NCBI GenBank assembly: GCA_964016885.1
Contig: OZ024742.1
Location: forward strand, 110,422,001-110,486,000
Direction: 5' to 3'
From: Eledone cirrhosa
Taxonomy: Eukaryota
DNA: 64,000 bases
The translations under genes were made by a program, and so were the position numbers. Of this stretch, positions 37,077-49,974 are shown piece after piece (within the stretch, counting starts at the first letter, position 1; the number at the start of each line of letters is the position of its first letter). Below the pieces are notes generated by a model, which was not told where the DNA came from, made no database searches, and was given only the letters and a program-made list of their open reading frames with translations.

Positions 37077-37218
37077 TTGAAAACAAAATGAAAACGAAAT
37101 TTCATTTCTCACTCTTAGTATGGCACTTACTTAAATGTAAGTATGTATGTATACGTACATACATATATGTATACAGACGTACAGTAGCATGCATATATAT
37201 ACATATATATACATATAC

Positions 37219-37307
<89 letters not shown>

Positions 37308-37311
<4 letters not shown>

Positions 37312-40300
37312 TAAGAGGAATTCCAACTTTGTCTGATTTACTCGTTTTATTTACAATCCTTTAAAATGTATAATGGTATTATAATGAAATAGTATGATAG
37401 AATATTAAATTCTAAGTGTTTATTGAACAAGTACTTTCATGCTTTCGCAATCTTCAGGTTCATAATATGTGGTGACAGTCGAGTTTTCAATTTTCAACTG
37501 TAATGAGATGGGTAAATTTCCTACCTTTTATACATTTTATACAGAGAAAAGTGGCTCCAGAATGCTAAGCCCTGTAAACTGTATTTCGACCAATCAGTGT
37601 GTAGTTTCACTGAATTACTAAAGCTGATTGGTTTAAGCGTCACGGCTGGTTGAGCATGCTAACGACCAATGATCATATCCAAAGCATCAATTGTTTTGCT
37701 ATGTTTAGAAATGATGAAAATAGCATTTTCTATTAATCATCACCATCAACATCACTTTTATTATTATTATTATTGTTGTTGTTGTTGTTGTTGTTAGTGG
37801 TCGTGGTCATAGTGGTAGTAGAAGTAGTACCCCTAAGCGTTATTATTGTTCATTTAGCTTGGGTTTGAATTTATCAATAAAATTCTTTTCTTTGATTTTT
37901 CTCTTGATTTTACTTGGGCTGTGTAATTTGTAGAATGGGAATATTATAAATATTCCCTGACCACATGTTGCCAGGTGACCGCTTAGGGGTATCTGACGGA
38001 CATTTGGGTCTCTGATTTGTTGACGGTGTACCCGTGCACGTTCCGATAGTGCATTTCCAGTTTGACCGACATATAGTTCTTCACAATTCGGGCATTTAAT
38101 GCAGTAAATTAGATTTCTGCTTTTGCAGTTCATATTTGCATTTGGGAATATTTTTCCAGTTTTTGTTTTCATATATTGACCGGCGTGTATGGATTGACAT
38201 GTGCCGCATCGACTATCATTGCATTTAGATACAGTGAATGATTGGTCTTTTGTTAGTAATTGCTTCAAATTTTTTGGCTGTCTTTTACTAAGAGTCAAAG
38301 ATCGATCTGTGATTAAGCCTTTTAATTCATTACTTTGACCAATGATCGGTAGGTTTGCTTTGGCAGTGTTGAAGATATTCTGGTGACATGGGTTGTGTGT
38401 CATTATAAATGGTATGACGAGTTCTTGGTTTCTTCTTCCTTGGGTTGTTCTAAGTTGTTGTACAGGTATTTTTATAGCCAGCTGTATGCCATTTTCTATA
38501 AGTAGAGATGGGTATTTTTATTTGAGCAAAAATTCTCTTAGTTCTGTTAGGCGTTTGTTCCTGGTATTCGTATCTTCTACAATGGTACAAATTCTTCTGG
38601 CTAGGCAGTATGGGATGTTGCGTTTTGTATGAGGTGGATGGCACGACTTAAAATTCAGATATTGATGGGTGTCTGTGTGTTTATAATATATATCCGTGGT
38701 AATGGTGGTGTCGTTTTTGATTATCATTATATCTAGGAATGGTAATTTGGTCCTACTCATCTCTTTTGTGAATTGGAGAGATGGGTGTAGGTTATTCAGG
38801 GGGATAATGAACTCATCCAGAGTATCTAGAGATTCTGTCCAGATGATGAAACAGTCGTCAAGGTATCTCTTCCAAGATTTTTCCATGTACTTTCTAAAGT
38901 CAGTACTATATTTTTCCTCTATTTCTTGGTAGAGTTGTTGTTCTAAGTATCCCATTACAGAGTTCGCGTAAACGGGAGCAAACTTCGTTCCCATCGCTGT
39001 GCCTCTAATTTGGATGTAATTCTTTCCATTGAAGAAGAAAGTGTTGTTTTCCAGAATAAGTTTAACTGCGTCTAATATAAATAGCTCTGTGAATCTAATG
39101 GGAATCACTTCTCTATGTTTTTCCACCCAGTATTTAACCGCCTTTATTTCTAAATCATGTGTAATGTTGGTGTAAAGGCTTACCACATCAAAACTGAGTA
39201 GAAGTGAATTCGTTTCCGTGGTTTTGGGAAGATGGGACAGGAAGTCGATATCATCCCGGATGAAACTGGGTATGTGAATACATAGTGGTTTCAAAATAAT
39301 GTCAACAAAATTGCTTAGACGGTGGGTGGGGCATGTTGGACCAGCTATAATAGGTCTAAGTTTCAAGTCTTTTGGGTGTATAATTTAATGTACTCACTGT
39401 TTTGTTCTCTTACTGCCAGTTGTATTTCTTTTGACTTATGAACTTTCGGTAGGCCATACAAGTTGCTGGGTTTCGGCTCAAAATTGGTGATGTAGTCTCT
39501 TTCCTTATCAGTAAATGAGTTGTGGTATTTTGAAGCCAGGTTGTTGATCTTCTTCATGATGTTGTGGTCTATATTTGACGGTATTTCATGATAGAATGTT
39601 GTGTCTTTCAGTTGTTCCTCAACCAAATCCTTGTAGAATTCAGTATCCATTATAACAACTGCACCCCCTTTATCTGCTAGTTTAATTATTATTGTTTTAT
39701 CATTTTGTATACGTTTAAGTGCAGACATTTCTGATTTGTTAATGTTTGGCCTAACATTAGTATTATGTCTAAGAGGAAATTTAGACAGGATGTCAATGTA
39801 TTGGTCGAGATAGATATTTCTTCCTTTTGGCGGAGTGAAATTTGATTTATTCTTTACTAGTGATTCATCACTCTCATTATTTTTATCAGCGAAGAATTCT
39901 ACAAGACGTAATTTTCGACAGAATTCTTGGGTATTCTCCTTCAGTTCTTGGTGATTGACTGTTGGAGTCGGTGTGAATTTCAGTCCTTTTGACAGAATTT
40001 GCATTTCATCATTGTCAAGATCTCTTTTAGATAAATTAATTATTTTAGGATCTACGTGTACAGCTGTTTTGGGTATGTTTCCTCCTGGAGTTTTTCTTTT
40101 TCCGGTTTTTGTTGTCCTGACGTTAAAAAATGGATTTTTCTCTGTTCAGGATTTATATTCCTGTTGGTGTTCGCTTGATGAACTTTTGGTCGTGATATTA
40201 TATTTGGTTTCGTTATGTATTTTGTCCTATTTTTGGTATTATGTATATTATTTTTCTTCCTGTTAGCATTATTTTTAACAATTTGGGAAAATGACCTAGG

Positions 40301-40655
40301 TTTGCTTTCAGGTTTAGATCGTTTTTTCGTCCAGTTTCTTGTGGGCAATCTCTGTTGAGATCTTGAGAGTGATCTGGTTATTCTACGTTTTGTTTCCACA
40401 TTCCTTGTTGGTAGTCTCTGTTGAGATCTTGAGAATGATCTCCTGGTTTTACTACTTCTCATGGTCTGGTCAAAGGAATATCTATCGTGTTTGTGCTTTT
40501 TGTTCATGTTGTGTGCGATAGGGTGTTTTTGTAGAAAAAGCGAAGAGTTATTACCGTAGCTCTTCTTTGATTCAAGGTAAGGTGAGTGTTTGTGTTGGCA
40601 CGTGTTCTGGCGTATGTTGTGTTGATGAGATTGTCCACTTTTAATGCTTTTTCTC
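37308..40655 (-). pseudogene. Neptune-like PLE, long arm (N-terminal region, RT, GIY-YIG, pLTR; disrupted)
   Basis: ORF pieces 40052-about 40655, 39363-40004 (LSKGLKFTP, ADKGGAVV, YGLPKVHK), 38518-39366 (RYLDD) and 37843-38403 (YVGQTG). HHR at 37425-37461. Confidence 0.92.
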
Positions 40656-42439
40656 AGAAATACAACTGGCAGTGTAAGAGAACAAAACAGTGAGTACATT
40701 AAATTATTACACCCAAAAGACTTAAAACTTAGACCTATTATAGCTGGTCCAACATGCCCCACCCACCGTCTAAGCAATTTTGTTGACATTATTTTGAAAC
40801 CACTATGTATTCACATACCCAGTTTCATCCGGGATGATATCGACTTCCTGTCCCATCTTCCCAAAACCACGGAAACGAATTCACTTCTACTCAGTTTTGA
40901 TGTGGTAAGCCTTTACACCAACATTACACATGATTTAAGAATAAAGGCGGTTAAATACTGGGTGGAAAAACATAGTGAAGTGATTCCCATTAGATTCACA
41001 GCGCCATTTATATTAGACGGAGTTAAACTTATTCTGGAAAACAACACTTTCTTCTTCAATGGAAAGAATTACATCCAAATTAGAGGCACAGCGATGGGAA
41101 CGAAGTCTGCTCCCGTTTACGCGAACTCTGTAATGGGATACTTAGAACAACAACTCTACCAAGAAATAGAGGAAAAATATAGTACTGACTTTAGAAAGTA
41201 CATTGAAAAATCTTGGAAGAGATACCTTGACGACTGTTTCATCATCTGGACAGAATCTCTAGATACTCTGGATGAGTTCATTATCCCCCTGAATAACCTA
41301 CACCCATCTCTCCAATTCACAAAAGAGATGAGTAGGACCAAATTACCATTCCTAGATATAATGATAATCAAAAACGACACCACCATTACCACGGATATAT
41401 ATTATAAACACACAGACACCCATCAATATCTGAATTTTAAGTCGTGCCATCCACCTCATACAAAACGCAACATCCCATACTGCCTAGCCAGAAGAATTTG
41501 TACCATTGTAGAAGATACGAATACCAGGTACAAACACCTAACAGAACTAAGAGAATTTTTGCTCAAACAAAAATACCCATCTCTACTTATAGAAAATGGC
41601 ATAAGCGGGCTATAAAAATACCTGTACAACAACTTAGAACAACCCAAGGAAGAAGAAACCAAGAACTGGTCATACCATTTATAATGACACACAACCCATG
41701 TCACCAGAATATCTTCAACACTGCCAAAGTAAACCTACCGATCATTGCTCAAAGTAATGAATTAAAAGGCTTAATCACAGATCGATCTTTGACTCTTAGT
41801 AAAAGACAGCCAAAAAATTTGAAGCAATTACTAACAAAAGCAAAGTTTGACCTTAACAACAAAGACCAATCATTCACTGTATCTAAATGCAATGATAGTC
41901 GATGCGGCACATGTCAATCCATACACGCCGGTCAATATATGAAAACAAAAACTGGAAAAATATTCCCAAATGCAAATATGAACTGCAAAAGCAGAAATCT
42001 AATTTACTGCATTAAATGCCCGAATTGTCAAGAAATATATGTCGGTCAAACTGGAAATGCAATATCGGAACGTGCACGGGTACACCGTCAACAAATCAGA
42101 GACCCAAATGTCCGTCAGATACCCCTAAGCGGTCACCTGGCAACATGTGGTCAGGGAATATTTATAATATTCCCATTCTACAAATTACACAGCCCAAGTG
42201 AAATCAAGAGAAAAATCAAAGAAAAGAATTTTATTGATAAATTCAAACCCAAGCTAAATGAACAATAATAACGCTTAGGGGTACTACTTCTACTACCACT
42301 ATGACCACGACCACTAACAACAACAACAACAACAACAACAATAATAATAATAATAAAAGTGATGTTGATGGTGATGATTAATAGAAAATGCTATTTTCAT
42401 CATTTCTAAACATAGCAAAACAATTGATGCTTTGGATAT

Positions 42440-42592
42440 GATCATTGGTCGTTAGCATGCTCAACCAGCCGTGACGCTTAAACCAATCAGCTTTAGTAAT
42501 TCAGTGAAACTACACACTGATTGGTCGAAATACAGTTTACAGGGCTTAGCATTCTGGAGCCACTTTTCTCTGTATAAAATGTATAAAAGGTA
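42440..42592 (+). promoter_or_regulatory. Putative Pol II promoter in the pLTR (CCAAT boxes + TATA)
   Basis: ATTGG (about 42444), CCAATCAG (about 42484), CTGATTGG (about 42517) and TATAAAA (about 42573, about 42582), 60-70 nt upstream of the HHR. Confidence 0.5.
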
Positions 42593-42652
42593 GGAAATTT
42601 ACCCATCTCATTACAGTTGAAAATTGAAAACTCGACTGTCACCACATATCAT

Positions 42653-42689
42653 GAACCTGAAGATTGCGAAAGCATGAAAGTACTTGTTC
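42653..42689 (+). ncRNA. Minimal hammerhead ribozyme
   Basis: GAAC-CTGAAGA-tTGCgaaaGCAt-GAAA-GTAC-TT^GTTC; mirror copy at 37425-37461 (-). Confidence 0.85.
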
Positions 42690-42839
42690 AATTAACACTT
42701 AGAATTTAATATTCTATCATACTATTTCATTATAATACCATTATATATTTTAAAGGATTGTAAATAAAACGAGTAAATCAGACAAAGTTGGAATTCCTCT
42801 TATTAATATAATCTTCTATACACAATCATACACACCCGT

Positions 42840-43830
<991 letters not shown>

Positions 43831-43980: not shown

Positions 43981-44095
43981 AAAAACCTGTATATATATAT
44001 GTATATATATATGTATATATATGTATATATATATGTATATGTATATGTATATATATGTATATATATGTATATATATGTATATATATATATATAAG

Positions 44096-45570
44096 AACAA
44101 ATGACGAAACGAAATTAAATTTCGTTTCGTTTGTAACTCACTTTTGTATGACTGACGCTTAAACAATTAAGTTAAAAAAATTACATCTACATATGCATAC
44201 TGAAATACTAGTGTGTATATGAATACACACACGTATACATATGTATATGTAACAAGTCTTTCACTGGTTGCTTTACTGTGAGCACCCAGCTATTCTGTAT
44301 GTAAACACACAGACAAACCGGTTTTTAGAGTCATACTGGTTTTTGAGGGAACACCTTCCCTCTATTCTCCAGAAAGCCAGACAAGGAATATTGAACTAGT
44401 TTCGTTGTTGTTACAACTCATCAGCAATATTTACCTATCTACCGGCCCTTCTGGAGAATTGTAAAAGCACATATCGTTATATGCTTTTTCTATGAAAATT
44501 AGTAGTGGGCAGACTAATTTGCATAGAGTGTGAGTACGCACCGGTTCAGCGGAGACGATAAAAACAAATGACGAAACGAAATTAAATTTCGTTTCGTTTG
44601 TAACTCACTTTTGTATGACTGACGCTTAAACAATTAAGTTAAAAAAATTACATCTACATATGCATACTGAAATACTAGTGTGTATATGAATACACACACG
44701 TATACATATGTATATGTAACAAGTCTTTCACTGGTTGCTTTACTGTGAGCACCCAGCTATTCTGTATGTAAACACACAGACAAACCGGTTTTTAGAGTCA
44801 TACTGGTTTTTGAGGGAACACCTTCCCTCTATTCTCCAGAAAGCCAGACAAGGAATATTGAACTAGTTTCGTTGTTGTTACAACTCATCAGCAATATTTA
44901 CCTATCTACCGGCCCTTCTGGAGAATTGTAAAAGCACATATCGTTATATGCTTTTTCTATGAAAATTAGTAGTGGGCAGACTAATTTGCATAGAGTGTGA
45001 GTACGCACCGGTTCAGCGGAGACGATAAAAACAAATGACGAAACGAAATTAAATTTTGTTTCGTTTGTAACTCACTTTTGTATGACTGACGCTTAAACAA
45101 TTAAGTTAAAAAAATTACATCTACATATGCATACTGAAATACTAGTGTGTATATGAATACACACACGTATACATATGTATATGTAACAAGTCTTTCACTG
45201 GTTGCTTTACTGTGAGCACCCAGCTATTCTGTATGTAAACACACAGACAAACCGGTTTTTAGAGTCATACTGGTTTTTGAGGGAACACCTTCCCTCTATT
45301 CTCCAGAAATGATGAGTTGTAACAACAACGAAACTAGTTCAATATTCCTTGTCTGGCTTTCTGTAGGAATAGAGGGAAGGTGTTCCCTCAAAAACCAGTA
45401 TGACTCTAAAAACCGGTTTGTCTGTGTGTTTACATACAGAATAGCTGGGTGCTCACAGTAAAGCAACCAGTGAAAGACTTGTTACATATACATATGTATA
45501 CGTGTGTGTATTCATATACACACTAGTATTTCAGTATGCATATGTAGATGTAATTTTTTTAAACTTAATT
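44096..45570 (-). mobile_element. Tandem array of 467-bp units (about 2.6) with hammerheads (44387-44431, 44854-44898) plus an inverted arm at 45310-45570; retrozyme-like
   Basis: ATGACGAAAC at 44101, 44568 and 45035. Minus strand: AATATTG-CTGATGA-GTTGTaacaACAAC-GAAA-CTAG-TT^CAATATT. Confidence 0.9.
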
Positions 45571-45584
45571 GTCTATATATATAA

Positions 45585-45694
<110 letters not shown>

Positions 45695-47542: not shown

Positions 47543-47814
47543 TGAGCTCAAGCCGTTTCGACGGCTAATTCTGTACTGAATTCAGTACAGAATTAGCCGT
47601 CGAAACGGCTTGAGCTCAGCCGTCAGGGTCTTACTTGTTCCTATTACCCACTCTACTACCCTAAGTATTGAGTACTTTGGTGCTTTATGGTCCACCTGGT
47701 TCCTTACCACATTTCCTTCGTTATCTAGCTCCTATCCCCGTAGTAGAGCAGTTTCCGACCCTACCACGCCGTACCCAGACTTTTCCGCTAAGCTCAATTT
47801 CTTTCACCCGCACC

Positions 47815-49974
47815 ATGCGAAAACACAATATCGACTTCTCTACCAAGAACATCCCAATCCCACCGAAAAAACTTTACCTTCGGATGCTTACGCAAAAAAT
47901 CGATCTATTTGCGAAAAGACTTAGATGGAGAACTTAGATGGAGAACTTTTTTCTACGACAGATTCTGCGACAATCAGGACTTCGGTACCAAGGAGAGATT
48001 CGGATTTATTACCTACAAATCACCCCCCCCCGAACCCTTTGCTCTCACCCTTCGAGAATGACCTCTTCCAACTGGTCAAGAACCTTAAATTCAAACCCAG
48101 ACACAACCGATTCCTACAAAAACTCCGTAGCAACTTAACAGAGTATGATAACACCAATGACATCATGGTGCATTCGGATAAAACTGGGAACCTATACTTT
48201 GTCAACCCCGACATATACCACACACTGATCAGGAGCAGCCTAAACTCCACCTATAAAAAGGCTAACCACTCATGCATCGAGGACATTAATCGAGATGGAC
48301 AACAAATTACCTCCAGCCGACCGCACCGAACCCCTAGACCCACGGACACCCTTCTTCACACTGAAGGACCACAAATCCGATTTCGACTGTAAACCATCTA
48401 TCAGGATTATAAACCCAACGAAGTCCGACATAGGGAGAATCAGCAAAAAAATCCTAGACCGCGTGATACCAAAAGTCAAGCAACACGCCCGACTTAGCCT
48501 ATGGATCAACACCCAGGAAGTTATCTCATGGTTCAGTAATTTGGAGGATAAACGAGACTCTAAATTTATCCAGTTCGACATAGAGAGCTACTATGCTTCA
48601 ATCACCTTACTGCTACTTACTGCCGCCTTGGACTTCGCCGAAGCACTTGTGCCCATCACGGACCAAGAAAGAAAAGTCATCCCCCACGCCAGGAAGATAG
48701 TCTTACTCTTTGACAACTCCAAATGGATAAAAAGAGCTCCTGACTCACCATTCGACGTCAGCATGGGCGCTACGGATTCGGCCGAGGTCACCGATCTTAT
48801 AGGATTATTCCTTATAGCCAAACTCACCGATATGTTTCCTGCTTTCGGTGGTGGATTGTACCGTGATGATGGGCTCCTTACCCTTAAAGGGTACAACCCC
48901 AGTAGTACAGATCGGGTCCGTAAACAATTAATCAGCTTCTTCCGCGACTGGGGATTTAAAATAACCCTACAAACGTCCCTGACCCGAGTTAATTTCCTGG
49001 ATGTTACCCTCGATCTCAATAATGACCTGTACTACCCATACAGGAAACCCAATGACAGCCTGCACTACATCCACCGCCGATCTAACCATCCCAGGAACAT
49101 CACCAACAACCTGGTCAAAAACATCTCCCTCCGTATATCCCGTTTGTCAGCTAATGAGAAGATATTCGATGAACATGCGCCTTACTACAACCAGGCCCTC
49201 AAGCGGAGTGGTTTCCGGGAGAAAATATCCTACTGTCCAGCTCCCATTAGCGGAACCAGCAGGCAACACCGCCGCTCACGCAATGTAACATGGTTCAATC
49301 CTCCCCACAACGCCGAGGTGACAACCCCCATCGGGAAAATTTTCTTTAGGCTCATTGAAAAACACTTCCCACCACAACACCGCTACCACAACATAATTAA
49401 CAAAAATACCATCAAACTCTCTTACAGCACTACACCTAACTTCGCACAAAACATCGTCTCCTCCAACAACAAAAAACTCAACCCCGATGGAAGAAACAAC
49501 CTAAATAGCAGTGGAGAGCCGACCAGGAGGTGCAACTGTCCTGATAGATCCAGTTGCCCCCTCGACAACAGATGCAGAGACCGTAATGTGATCTACCAGT
49601 GCAACGTGAGCACGGACACATCCAACAAAGCTTATATAGGATTAACCGCATGTGACTTCAAGACCCGGCTATACCAACACAGACATACCTTCCGAAACCC
49701 GGCCCGGCGTCACGCCACTACACTTTCGGGCCACATATGGGACCTCAAGGACAACAACATCAACTATCATCTCACTTGGAAATTACTGTCCAGAGCCAAC
49801 TCTTACACGGGAGGACGCCGTCCGTGCAATTTATGCTCGGAGGAAACATTACAAATGCTGTTTTCGACGGACCAACTCCTAAACAAGAAAGATGAACTGG
49901 TTACTGCATGTAAACACCGATTACGTAGGACTTACCTCGCCCTCAAACCCCATAATGACCCGGGGGGGGGGTAG
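47815..49974 (+). pseudogene. PLE RT-GIY-YIG ORF with 5' frameshifts; the 3' 559 codons are open
   Basis: ATG 47815 MRKHNIDFSTKNIP; 13-bp duplication ACTTAGATGGAGA at about 47919-47944; further shifts at about 48030 and about 48310. GLYRDD, CNCPDRSSCPLDNRC, YIGLTACDFKTR. Confidence 0.9.

What the first reader, a model, noticed from the sequence alone, without database searches (positions are those of the whole stretch)
45310..45570. Retrozyme array carries a PLE-type inverted arm that starts inside the catalytic core
Seen: the inverted copy begins at TGATGAG (core without C3 and the 5' strand of stem I) and ends about 65 nt short of the array's 3' end, at (TA)n. This is the same tailed/tail-less geometry as the coding PLEs here. 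Inference: a sequence footprint that PLE machinery inserted this non-coding repeat.
Basis: partly seen in the sequence, partly recalled or inferred. Interest (0 to 1): 0.75.

Follow-up and report, generated by a model that had tools for sequence, protein, structure and literature searches.

The report
Ribozyme repeat with Penelope two-arm footprint
This is one of at least two thousand insertions of a protein-free 467-base repeat carrying a predicted self-cutting RNA motif; most sampled copies sit as two back-to-back arms with one longer and one shorter fixed end, the pattern of Penelope-type jumping genes, whose enzyme likely copied one RNA from both sides of a DNA cut, while this arm's start inside the ribozyme looks like chance.

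Summary
A 467-nt hammerhead (retrozyme) array (44096-45309, minus strand) is joined head-to-head to an inverted arm (45310-45572) ending 67 nt short of the array's end, inside (TA)n, with a candidate 12-nt target duplication. The genome holds at least 5142 copies of this ribozyme and 2162 long and 1425 short ends fused to (TA)n. In 66 sampled insertions, 47 were two-armed, 107 of 113 outer ends fell at two fixed sites, and 42 of 42 canonical pairs joined one long and one short end. Inner ends scatter: 3 of 243 start in the core (4.2 expected), so the core start is chance. Two coding Penelope-type families in this window show the same geometry. Best reading: a Penelope-like RT/endonuclease primes both target strands on one RNA (circle or multimer unresolved). 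The partner enzyme was not found; no RNA data. Penelope mobilisation of retrozymes is already proposed in print; I found no paper showing this footprint. The scan noted the same footprint earlier for other families in this and other genomes.

The parts
44084..44095 (+). Left copy of candidate 12-nt target-site duplication, at the end of a (TA)n run
   Evidence: Same 12-mer at 45574-45585, includes a non-TA letter
44096..45309 (-). Long-ended arm: 2.6 head-to-tail copies of the 467-nt non-coding unit, q183 to q462
   Evidence: TRF period 467; units differ at 0 of 462 and 1 of 285 positions, longest stop-free frame 60 codons
44096..44162 (-). One-sided tail (q396-462, 67 nt), holding a long predicted hairpin (44097-44134)
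   Evidence: Absent from the inverted arm; fold
44387..44431 (-). Minimal type I hammerhead motif 1; predicted cleavage between 44394 and 44393
   Evidence: CTGATGA and GAAA cores, stem I 7 bp, stem II 5 bp, palindromic stem III; no Rfam hit at gathering score
44854..44898 (-). Minimal type I hammerhead motif 2; predicted cleavage between 44861 and 44860
   Evidence: Identical motif; two copies cofold as a double hammerhead, -18.4 versus -7.5 kcal/mol for one
44394..44860 (-). Predicted 467-nt monomer RNA between the two cleavage sites
   Evidence: MFE -160 kcal/mol, z = -10.5 against 100 shuffles
45310..45572 (+). Short-ended inverted arm, q135 to q395; its first 37 nt (45310-45346) are a 5'-truncated hammerhead without C3
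   Evidence: Alignment to the unit; blunt head-to-head junction
45574..45585 (+). Right copy of candidate target-site duplication, after one extra C at 45573, then (TA)n
37307..42870 (.). Comparison element: two-armed coding PLE (RT + C-terminal GIY-YIG, hammerhead in 3' region), short end 37307, long end about 42860-42870
   Evidence: Pfam RVT_1 and GIY-YIG; self-alignment and motif scan; ends
25081..28686 (+). Comparison element: PLE-type ORF (25595-27607) with inverted 5' arm and 168-nt one-sided tail
   Evidence: No Pfam hit; 40% identical to ORF 48244-49974, which matches the Pfam-positive PLE ORF 13315-14700 at E 5e-9; ends

Best explanation
The locus is one insertion of an abundant non-coding 467-nt hammerhead repeat, built as two head-to-head arms with one long and one short fixed outer end in (TA)n, and it was likely made by a Penelope-like reverse transcriptase/GIY-YIG endonuclease acting in trans, which would nick both strands of the TA run and likely prime both on the same RNA at two fixed sites about 70 nt apart. 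Steps. Shown: unit, copy number, two fixed outer ends, long+short pairing, TA target, scattered inner ends, shared haplotype of the two arms, same geometry in coding PLE-type families. Inferred: (1) the array is transcribed and the ribozymes, probably as dimers, cut out monomers that may circularise; (2) staggered nicks about 12 nt apart give two 3'-OH primers, helped by a few bases of AT microhomology; (3) one primer starts at q462-467 behind the tail hairpin, the other at q392-398 in a small conserved hairpin; (4) both cDNAs run through the ribozyme site, often for several units, so the template is a circle or an uncleaved multimer, not a cut linear monomer; (5) the two cDNAs stop at unrelated positions and are joined, often by microhomology. 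The start at q135 here is one draw from step 5.
For: Counts: 5142 exact ribozyme copies; 2162 long ends and 1425 short ends fused to TA, reversed-pattern controls 0. Samples A (39 events from best hits) and B (27 events, first ribozyme places on C1): 47 of 66 two-armed; 107 of 113 outer ends in two windows covering about 5% of the unit; TA follows 93 of those 107; 42 long+short, 0 long+long, 0 short+short, p = 2e-13 against 0.5. Samples picked by the long end only: far end short in 10 of 11 and 22 of 25 two-armed loci, never long (one of the 25 is a duplicate). Several one-armed loci carry 7-20-nt micro-arms of the complementary type (4 of 10 in sample B). Arms of one locus differ by a median 0.7% against 6.1% to other loci, n = 70. 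Inner ends of the two arms are unrelated (KS p = 0.33); overlap of 3 nt or more at 22 of 50 clean junctions against 6% by chance. Both arms exceed one unit in 18 of 49 loci; no peak at the cleavage site, 7 of 243 against 5.7. A sister family (427 nt, 52% column identity) ends at the homologous two sites. Coding element at 25081-28686: second arm ends at the short site in 7 of 7 loci where a pLTR-matching second arm ends inside the stretch. In vitro, a PLE protein nicks and extends both strands of AT-rich DNA and starts at two internal RNA sites that define the tail (PMC11167929).
Against: No autonomous partner: a profile of both retrozyme families found no pLTR relative in 90 PLE-containing loci plus the window, and the coding element's ends did not fold like the retrozyme's. 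The tail (67 nt) is longer than the published 30-40 nt (PMC8557442). Short+short pairs exist: 3 were picked from the genome lists and confirmed, so the pairing is not absolute. Target duplications are visible in few loci: 12 of 73 against 6.6% in controls and 2 of 24 against 2.7%, neither convincing. The own arm was the closest or tied in only 43 of 70 loci, and later gene conversion could also make arms alike. In samples picked by the long end, 5 of 93 inner ends lie at the cleavage site against 2.2 expected (p = 0.07), so some cut linear templates are not excluded. Junction overlaps come from BLAST ends and may be slightly inflated. Ribozyme activity, transcription and circles are untested.
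Confidence: 0.72

Rival explanations
1. PLE machinery, but one priming event: the first cDNA (or an antisense template) folds back and is copied, and the short end is set by endonuclease resolution, as proposed for Penelope inverted repeats.
For: Self-priming is proposed in PMC3846280 (passages) and endonuclease resolution of the tail in PMC8557442; arms share a haplotype; 4 of 75 junctions have long fold-back overlaps.
Against: Fold-back predicts near-coincident inner ends, but the offsets are uniform (KS p = 0.33); the short-ended arm is the longer one in 15 of 49 loci; here the arm starts 48 nt upstream of the array's inner end.
Confidence: 0.12
2. The unit is only the terminal repeat (pLTR) of an unseen autonomous PLE, so arrays are truncated or stuttered cis-products, not a self-standing non-coding element.
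For: Retrozyme-pLTR homology is reported in Xenopus (10.64898/2026.07.22.740005); three one-armed loci abut PLE ORF fragments.
Against: Arms of up to 16 units hold no ORF between units; the three abutting fragments belong to three different PLE families and one keeps a remnant of the second arm, which points to later deletions; no pLTR match in 90 PLE loci.
Confidence: 0.06
3. A LINE enzyme (RTE, CR1 or L2 type) inserted the repeat, with L1-style twin priming making the inversion.
For: LINE-type RT and endonuclease fragments occur in the window; head-to-head geometry and microhomology joining resemble L1 twin priming (recalled); PMC7229834 names LINEs or PLEs as candidates.
Against: The second start is fixed, not variable; both arms copy the same sequence; no poly(A) or simple-repeat tail; one-sided tail and TA targeting match the PLE-type families here.
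Confidence: 0.05
4. Two independent insertions back to back in one TA run, a later DNA inversion, or an assembly fold-back artefact.
For: TA runs in this genome collect many insertions; no raw read across this junction was available.
Against: No TA at inner junctions, arms share a haplotype, strict long+short pairing, asymmetric arms, one duplication around the whole insert.
Confidence: 0.03

Closest known systems
Metazoan non-LTR retrozymes (Cervera and de la Pena 2020, PMC7229834; Li, Clavereau and Pollet 2026, bioRxiv 10.64898/2026.07.22.740005)
   Same: Non-coding tandem unit, one type I hammerhead per unit, GC 36%, dispersed short and long arrays, co-occurrence with PLEs, which both papers propose as the mobiliser.
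   Different: Unit 467 nt (expressed RNAs there about 170-400 nt; 51-972 bp in the preprint); minimal palindromic ribozyme; two-armed head-to-head insertions with two fixed ends, not described in the parts I read ('inverted' occurs 0 times in PMC7229834's main text). RNA, cleavage and circles untested here.
Endonuclease-bearing Penelope-like elements (Penelope/Poseidon, Neptune, Naiad, Hydra): partial tandem + inverted 5'-truncated copy + one-sided tail (PMC3846280, PMC8557442, PMC11167929)
   Same: Inverted adjacent copy, tail at one end only, AT-rich or (TA)n target, hammerhead in the repeat, two internal start sites.
   Different: No RT or endonuclease ORF; tail 67 nt rather than 30-40; arms are multimers of one short unit; pairing measured here as nearly strict rather than 'optional'.
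Non-autonomous Chlamys PLE derivatives such as MRC1 (PMC8557442, passage)
   Same: Non-coding, multicopy head-to-tail insertions attributed to PLE machinery.
   Different: Those share 3' sequence with a known autonomous family; no such partner was found here.
L1 twin priming (recalled, not read)
   Same: Both target ends primed on one RNA, head-to-head product, microhomology at the inner joint.
   Different: In L1 the second start is variable and the two parts barely overlap; here both starts are fixed and the arms overlap fully.

Membership tests
Non-LTR retrozyme | Tandem non-coding unit of a few hundred bp | tested here: met
   467-nt period; longest stop-free frame 60 codons
Non-LTR retrozyme | Type I hammerhead motif in each unit, at least two consecutive | tested here: met
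   Two intact motifs 467 nt apart, stems fold, core 99.5% conserved across units; Rfam gathering search negative
Non-LTR retrozyme | Dispersed copies, no LTR/PBS/PPT, low GC | tested here: met
   5142 exact motif copies; GC 36%; no LTR structure in the loci mapped; PBS/PPT not scanned separately
Non-LTR retrozyme | Self-cleavage and expression as linear and circular RNA | not testable with these tools
   Needs an assay or RNA reads; only indirect support from fold and read-through arms
PLE-type insertion footprint | Inverted 5'-truncated copy adjacent to the 5' end | tested here: met
   47 of 66 events two-armed, all head-to-head
PLE-type insertion footprint | Tail at one end only (two start sites) | tested here: met
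   42 of 42 canonical pairs long+short; length 67 nt exceeds the published 30-40 nt; 3 short+short exceptions in a hand-picked set
PLE-type insertion footprint | AT-rich or (TA)n target | tested here: met
   93 of 107 canonical ends followed by TA
PLE-type insertion footprint | Target-site duplication around the whole unit | tested here: inconclusive
   12-mer here; 12 of 73 vs 6.6%; 2 of 24 vs 2.7%; TA runs hide most
Autonomous PLE | ORF with RT and GIY-YIG endonuclease | tested here: not met
   No ORF in the unit or between units
Non-autonomous derivative of a named PLE family | Sequence homology to that family's pLTR or 3' end | tested here: inconclusive
   None in 90 PLE loci from a handful of families plus the window; only 30 of 150 listed GIY-YIG hits, out of 10596 candidates, were fetched

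The most novel reading that the evidence does not exclude
A Penelope-type enzyme, probably a dimer, loads on one circular retrozyme RNA and primes both strands of a cut (TA)n at two fixed sites flanking a hairpin tail, then rolls round the circle from both; the long+short rule is the genomic record of that asymmetric complex and explains both how animal retrozymes spread and how PLE inverted arms and tails arise.
Probability: 0.4. Interest if true: 0.75.

Novelty: new member of a known kind. Interest (0 to 1): 0.5.

Why it matters
Which enzyme spreads animal retrozymes is proposed (PLEs) but rests on co-occurrence and pLTR homology, and how PLEs make inverted arms and one-sided tails is still open. 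This family gives thousands of young insertions with two mapped start sites on a 467-nt RNA, so it supplies a short defined template and exact predictions for the existing PLE in vitro assay. The specific feature flagged, a start in the catalytic core, carries no meaning.

Tried and rejected
Core-start hypothesis: 3 of 243 inner ends in q134-141 (4.2 expected), 15 in the whole ribozyme (23.4 expected); overall spread mildly uneven (chi-square p = 0.015), with the excess near q375-467, not at the core. Partner search: variant-ribozyme patterns returned subfamilies of the same unit, a sister non-coding family and three unrelated decayed motifs; profile search over 90 PLE loci was negative; the lead that PLE and retrozyme ends share small hairpins held for the two retrozyme families but not for the two coding elements folded. 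Retrozyme-PLE 'chimeras' (L230, L237, L247) were not used as evidence: three different families, probably deletions. Rfam: no hit. Expression: no RNA holder listed; contigs of four runs did not span the junction and gave nothing usable. Second TSD test unconvincing. An octamer-like word in the unit suggested an snRNA-type promoter as recalled for newt satellite 2; the paper search listing did not confirm it. Circle versus multimer could not be separated from unit diversity. Rows dropped before counts: L032 (duplicate of L031), L137 and L152 (incomplete or two events), the second event in L044; L083/84 and L098/99 merged; L071 left out of haplotype and junction counts; two stretches ran off the edge, L310 was not parsed, L301 duplicates L300. 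Sample D (19 loci) was hand-picked as pairs and is excluded from the pairing test but included in the 243 inner ends.

Full report
1. Observation. The window holds 2.6 head-to-tail copies of a 467-nt unit. On the minus strand each full unit carries a minimal type I hammerhead motif: CTGATGA and GAAA cores, a 7-bp stem I, a 5-bp stem II and a palindromic stem III. Rfam gave no hit at gathering score. Numbering the unit on that strand (q1 = 45024), C3 is q134 and the predicted cut follows q164. The array runs from q183 (45309) to q462 (44096). Directly next to it, on the plus strand, an inverted arm runs from q135 (45310) to q395 (45572), with three small differences. So the two 5' ends meet in a blunt junction, both 3' ends point outward into (TA)n, and only the array has the last 67 nt. 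A 12-mer with a non-TA letter flanks the whole structure on both sides.

2. The family. The genome (3.0 Gb) holds 5142 exact copies of the 31-nt ribozyme core and 1035 matches to a variant pattern, mostly a subfamily in the listed part. The long end fused to TA occurs 2162 times and the short end 1425 times, with 0 in the reversed controls; the patterns differ in strictness, so both are lower bounds. The predicted monomer RNA folds far better than shuffles (z = -10.5), has no ORF, and two ribozymes cofold as a double hammerhead; dimeric action of such motifs is reported for amphibian retrozymes (PMC7229834 abstract).

3. Geometry across copies. Sample A is 39 events from the 40 best-scoring loci, including this one; sample B is 27 events from the first 100 ribozyme places on contig C1. 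Of 66 events, 47 have two arms of at least about 30 nt, all head-to-head. Of 113 outer ends, 58 lie at q460-467 (or just past) and 49 at q390-400; TA follows 93 of these 107. Of 47 two-armed events, 42 have two canonical ends and all 42 are long+short (p = 2e-13 against 0.5, the most that independent choice allows); 5 have one odd end. Two further samples picked only by the long end gave a short far end in 10 of 11 and 22 of 25 (one duplicate included), and never a long one. Four of 10 one-armed events in sample B have a 7-20-nt micro-arm of the complementary type at TA. Against a strict rule: three short+short pairs spotted in the genome lists were confirmed (L156, L157, L164).

4. Inner ends. 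Across all samples, 243 inner ends scatter over the unit: 3 in CTGATGAG (4.2 expected), 15 in the ribozyme (23.4), 7 at the cut site (5.7). The start at q135 is therefore chance. The lack of a peak at q165, and arms that pass the ribozyme many times (both arms longer than one unit in 18 of 49 loci; up to 16 units), argue that the template is a circle or an uncleaved multimer; a weak excess at the cut site in the long-end samples (5 of 93 against 2.2, p = 0.07) leaves room for some cut templates. The two inner ends of a locus are unrelated (KS p = 0.33). Of 75 junctions, 21 have inserted bases, 4 long fold-back overlaps, and of the other 50, 22 overlap by 3 nt or more against 6% by chance.

5. 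One template. In 70 two-armed loci the two arms differ by a median 0.7% against 6.1% to arms elsewhere; the own arm is closest or tied in 43 of 70. That fits one RNA, though conversion after insertion is not excluded. Target duplications are mostly hidden by TA: 12 of 73 loci against 6.6% in mismatched controls, several of 12-13 nt, but only 2 unconvincing of 24 in a second sample.

6. Comparison inside the genome. A sister non-coding family (427 nt, 52% column identity) ends at the homologous two sites, about 50 nt apart, and five of its loci show long+short pairs; both families have a small predicted hairpin at the short site and a longer one before the long site. The coding element at 37307-42870 (RT and GIY-YIG) has a short left end and a long right end 53-60 nt further, seen again clearly in one of 30 other loci, most of which did not show a second arm. 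The element at 25081-28686 has a 168-nt tail, and 7 of 7 second arms ending inside the fetched stretches stop at its short site. No partner was found: a profile of both retrozyme families hit no pLTR in 90 PLE loci, a small part of the 10596 GIY-YIG candidates.

7. Mechanism. Most likely a PLE protein nicks both strands of a TA run and primes both on one RNA at two fixed sites; the cDNAs stop independently and are joined. The in vitro behaviour of an anole PLE (both strands cut and extended, AT-rich target, two internal starts equal to the tail, predicted dimer; PMC11167929, parts 1-2 of 4 read) is the direct precedent. A fold-back model (PMC3846280, passages) fits worse because inner ends are unrelated and the short-ended arm is the longer in 15 of 49 loci. 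LINE twin priming (recalled), a mere pLTR stub, and artefact are less likely (see rivals).

8. What is known. PMC7229834 (passages) defines animal non-LTR retrozymes and names PLEs as strong candidates; the 2026 preprint 10.64898/2026.07.22.740005 (parts 1-3 of 5, abstract to discussion; supplements not seen) argues PLE origin from co-occurrence and pLTR homology and, in what I read, does not analyse insertion ends. The inverted copy plus one-sided tail is textbook for PLEs (PMC8557442 passages; PMC3846280; PMC2377424 passages), and non-autonomous PLE derivatives are known in Chlamydomonas. Five full-text searches (listings only for papers not named above) showed no paper reporting this footprint in retrozymes; the library lacks most subscription journals. 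Earlier notes of this scan report the same footprint for 310-, 500- and 591-nt families in this genome and in other genomes; none matched this 467-nt unit by sequence. They are unchecked AI notes; my reading was set before I saw them.

9. Verdict. A new member of the known non-LTR retrozymes with a real, strongly recurrent PLE-type footprint. The footprint strengthens a published hypothesis and makes it testable; the core start is incidental. Interest 0.5.

Noticed in passing
window 23445-24261 and 28906-30532 (minus strand): A 593-bp tandem repeat in (TA)n with a hammerhead-like motif whose core reads TTGATAA...GAAAC (C3U/G8A-type variant, label recalled); its two 3' ends lie 162 nt apart in the unit. 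Probably another retrozyme family; the MFE fold did not give a clean hammerhead.
   Followed up: partly
window 37091-37228 (minus); L130, L248-L269: Fragment of the 427-nt sister retrozyme family, homologous along the whole unit, with ends at the homologous two sites.
   Followed up: yes
window 44517-44524 and 44984-44991 (minus strand of the unit, q34-41): ATGCAAAT octamer-like word, 97% conserved in the family, also in the sister family and about 95 nt upstream of a decayed ribozyme in L266; possible internal promoter element.
   Followed up: partly
window 25081-28686: PLE-type element with no Pfam hit and a 168-nt one-sided tail, four to five times the published length; resembles the Hydra clade by description, not tested.
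   Followed up: partly
window 37307-42870: Two-armed coding PLE; tandem copies elsewhere repeat every 4202 bp and the long end falls in a TA tract native to the element just before the ORF.
   Followed up: partly
window 15144-15540 and 47543-47618: Near-perfect palindromes (397 and 76 nt) in TA context; the first has a hammerhead-like motif in each arm. Likely short two-armed insertions of other families.
   Followed up: no
L230:550-3120, L237:520-1715, L247:5745-5935: One-armed retrozyme arrays joined without TA, head-to-head, to ORF pieces of three different PLE-type families; probably deletions, but two-template chimeras are not excluded.
   Followed up: partly
L071:2447-7211: A two-armed retrozyme insertion split by a later LINE-type insertion with a 1040-aa frame.
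   Followed up: no
L031/L032 and L300/L301: Identical insertions about 10 and 18 kb apart, from local duplication or assembly repeat.
   Followed up: no
L096, L134, L140, L145, L316, L320: One-armed copies whose 5' end joins (TA)n directly, with no micro-arm.
   Followed up: no
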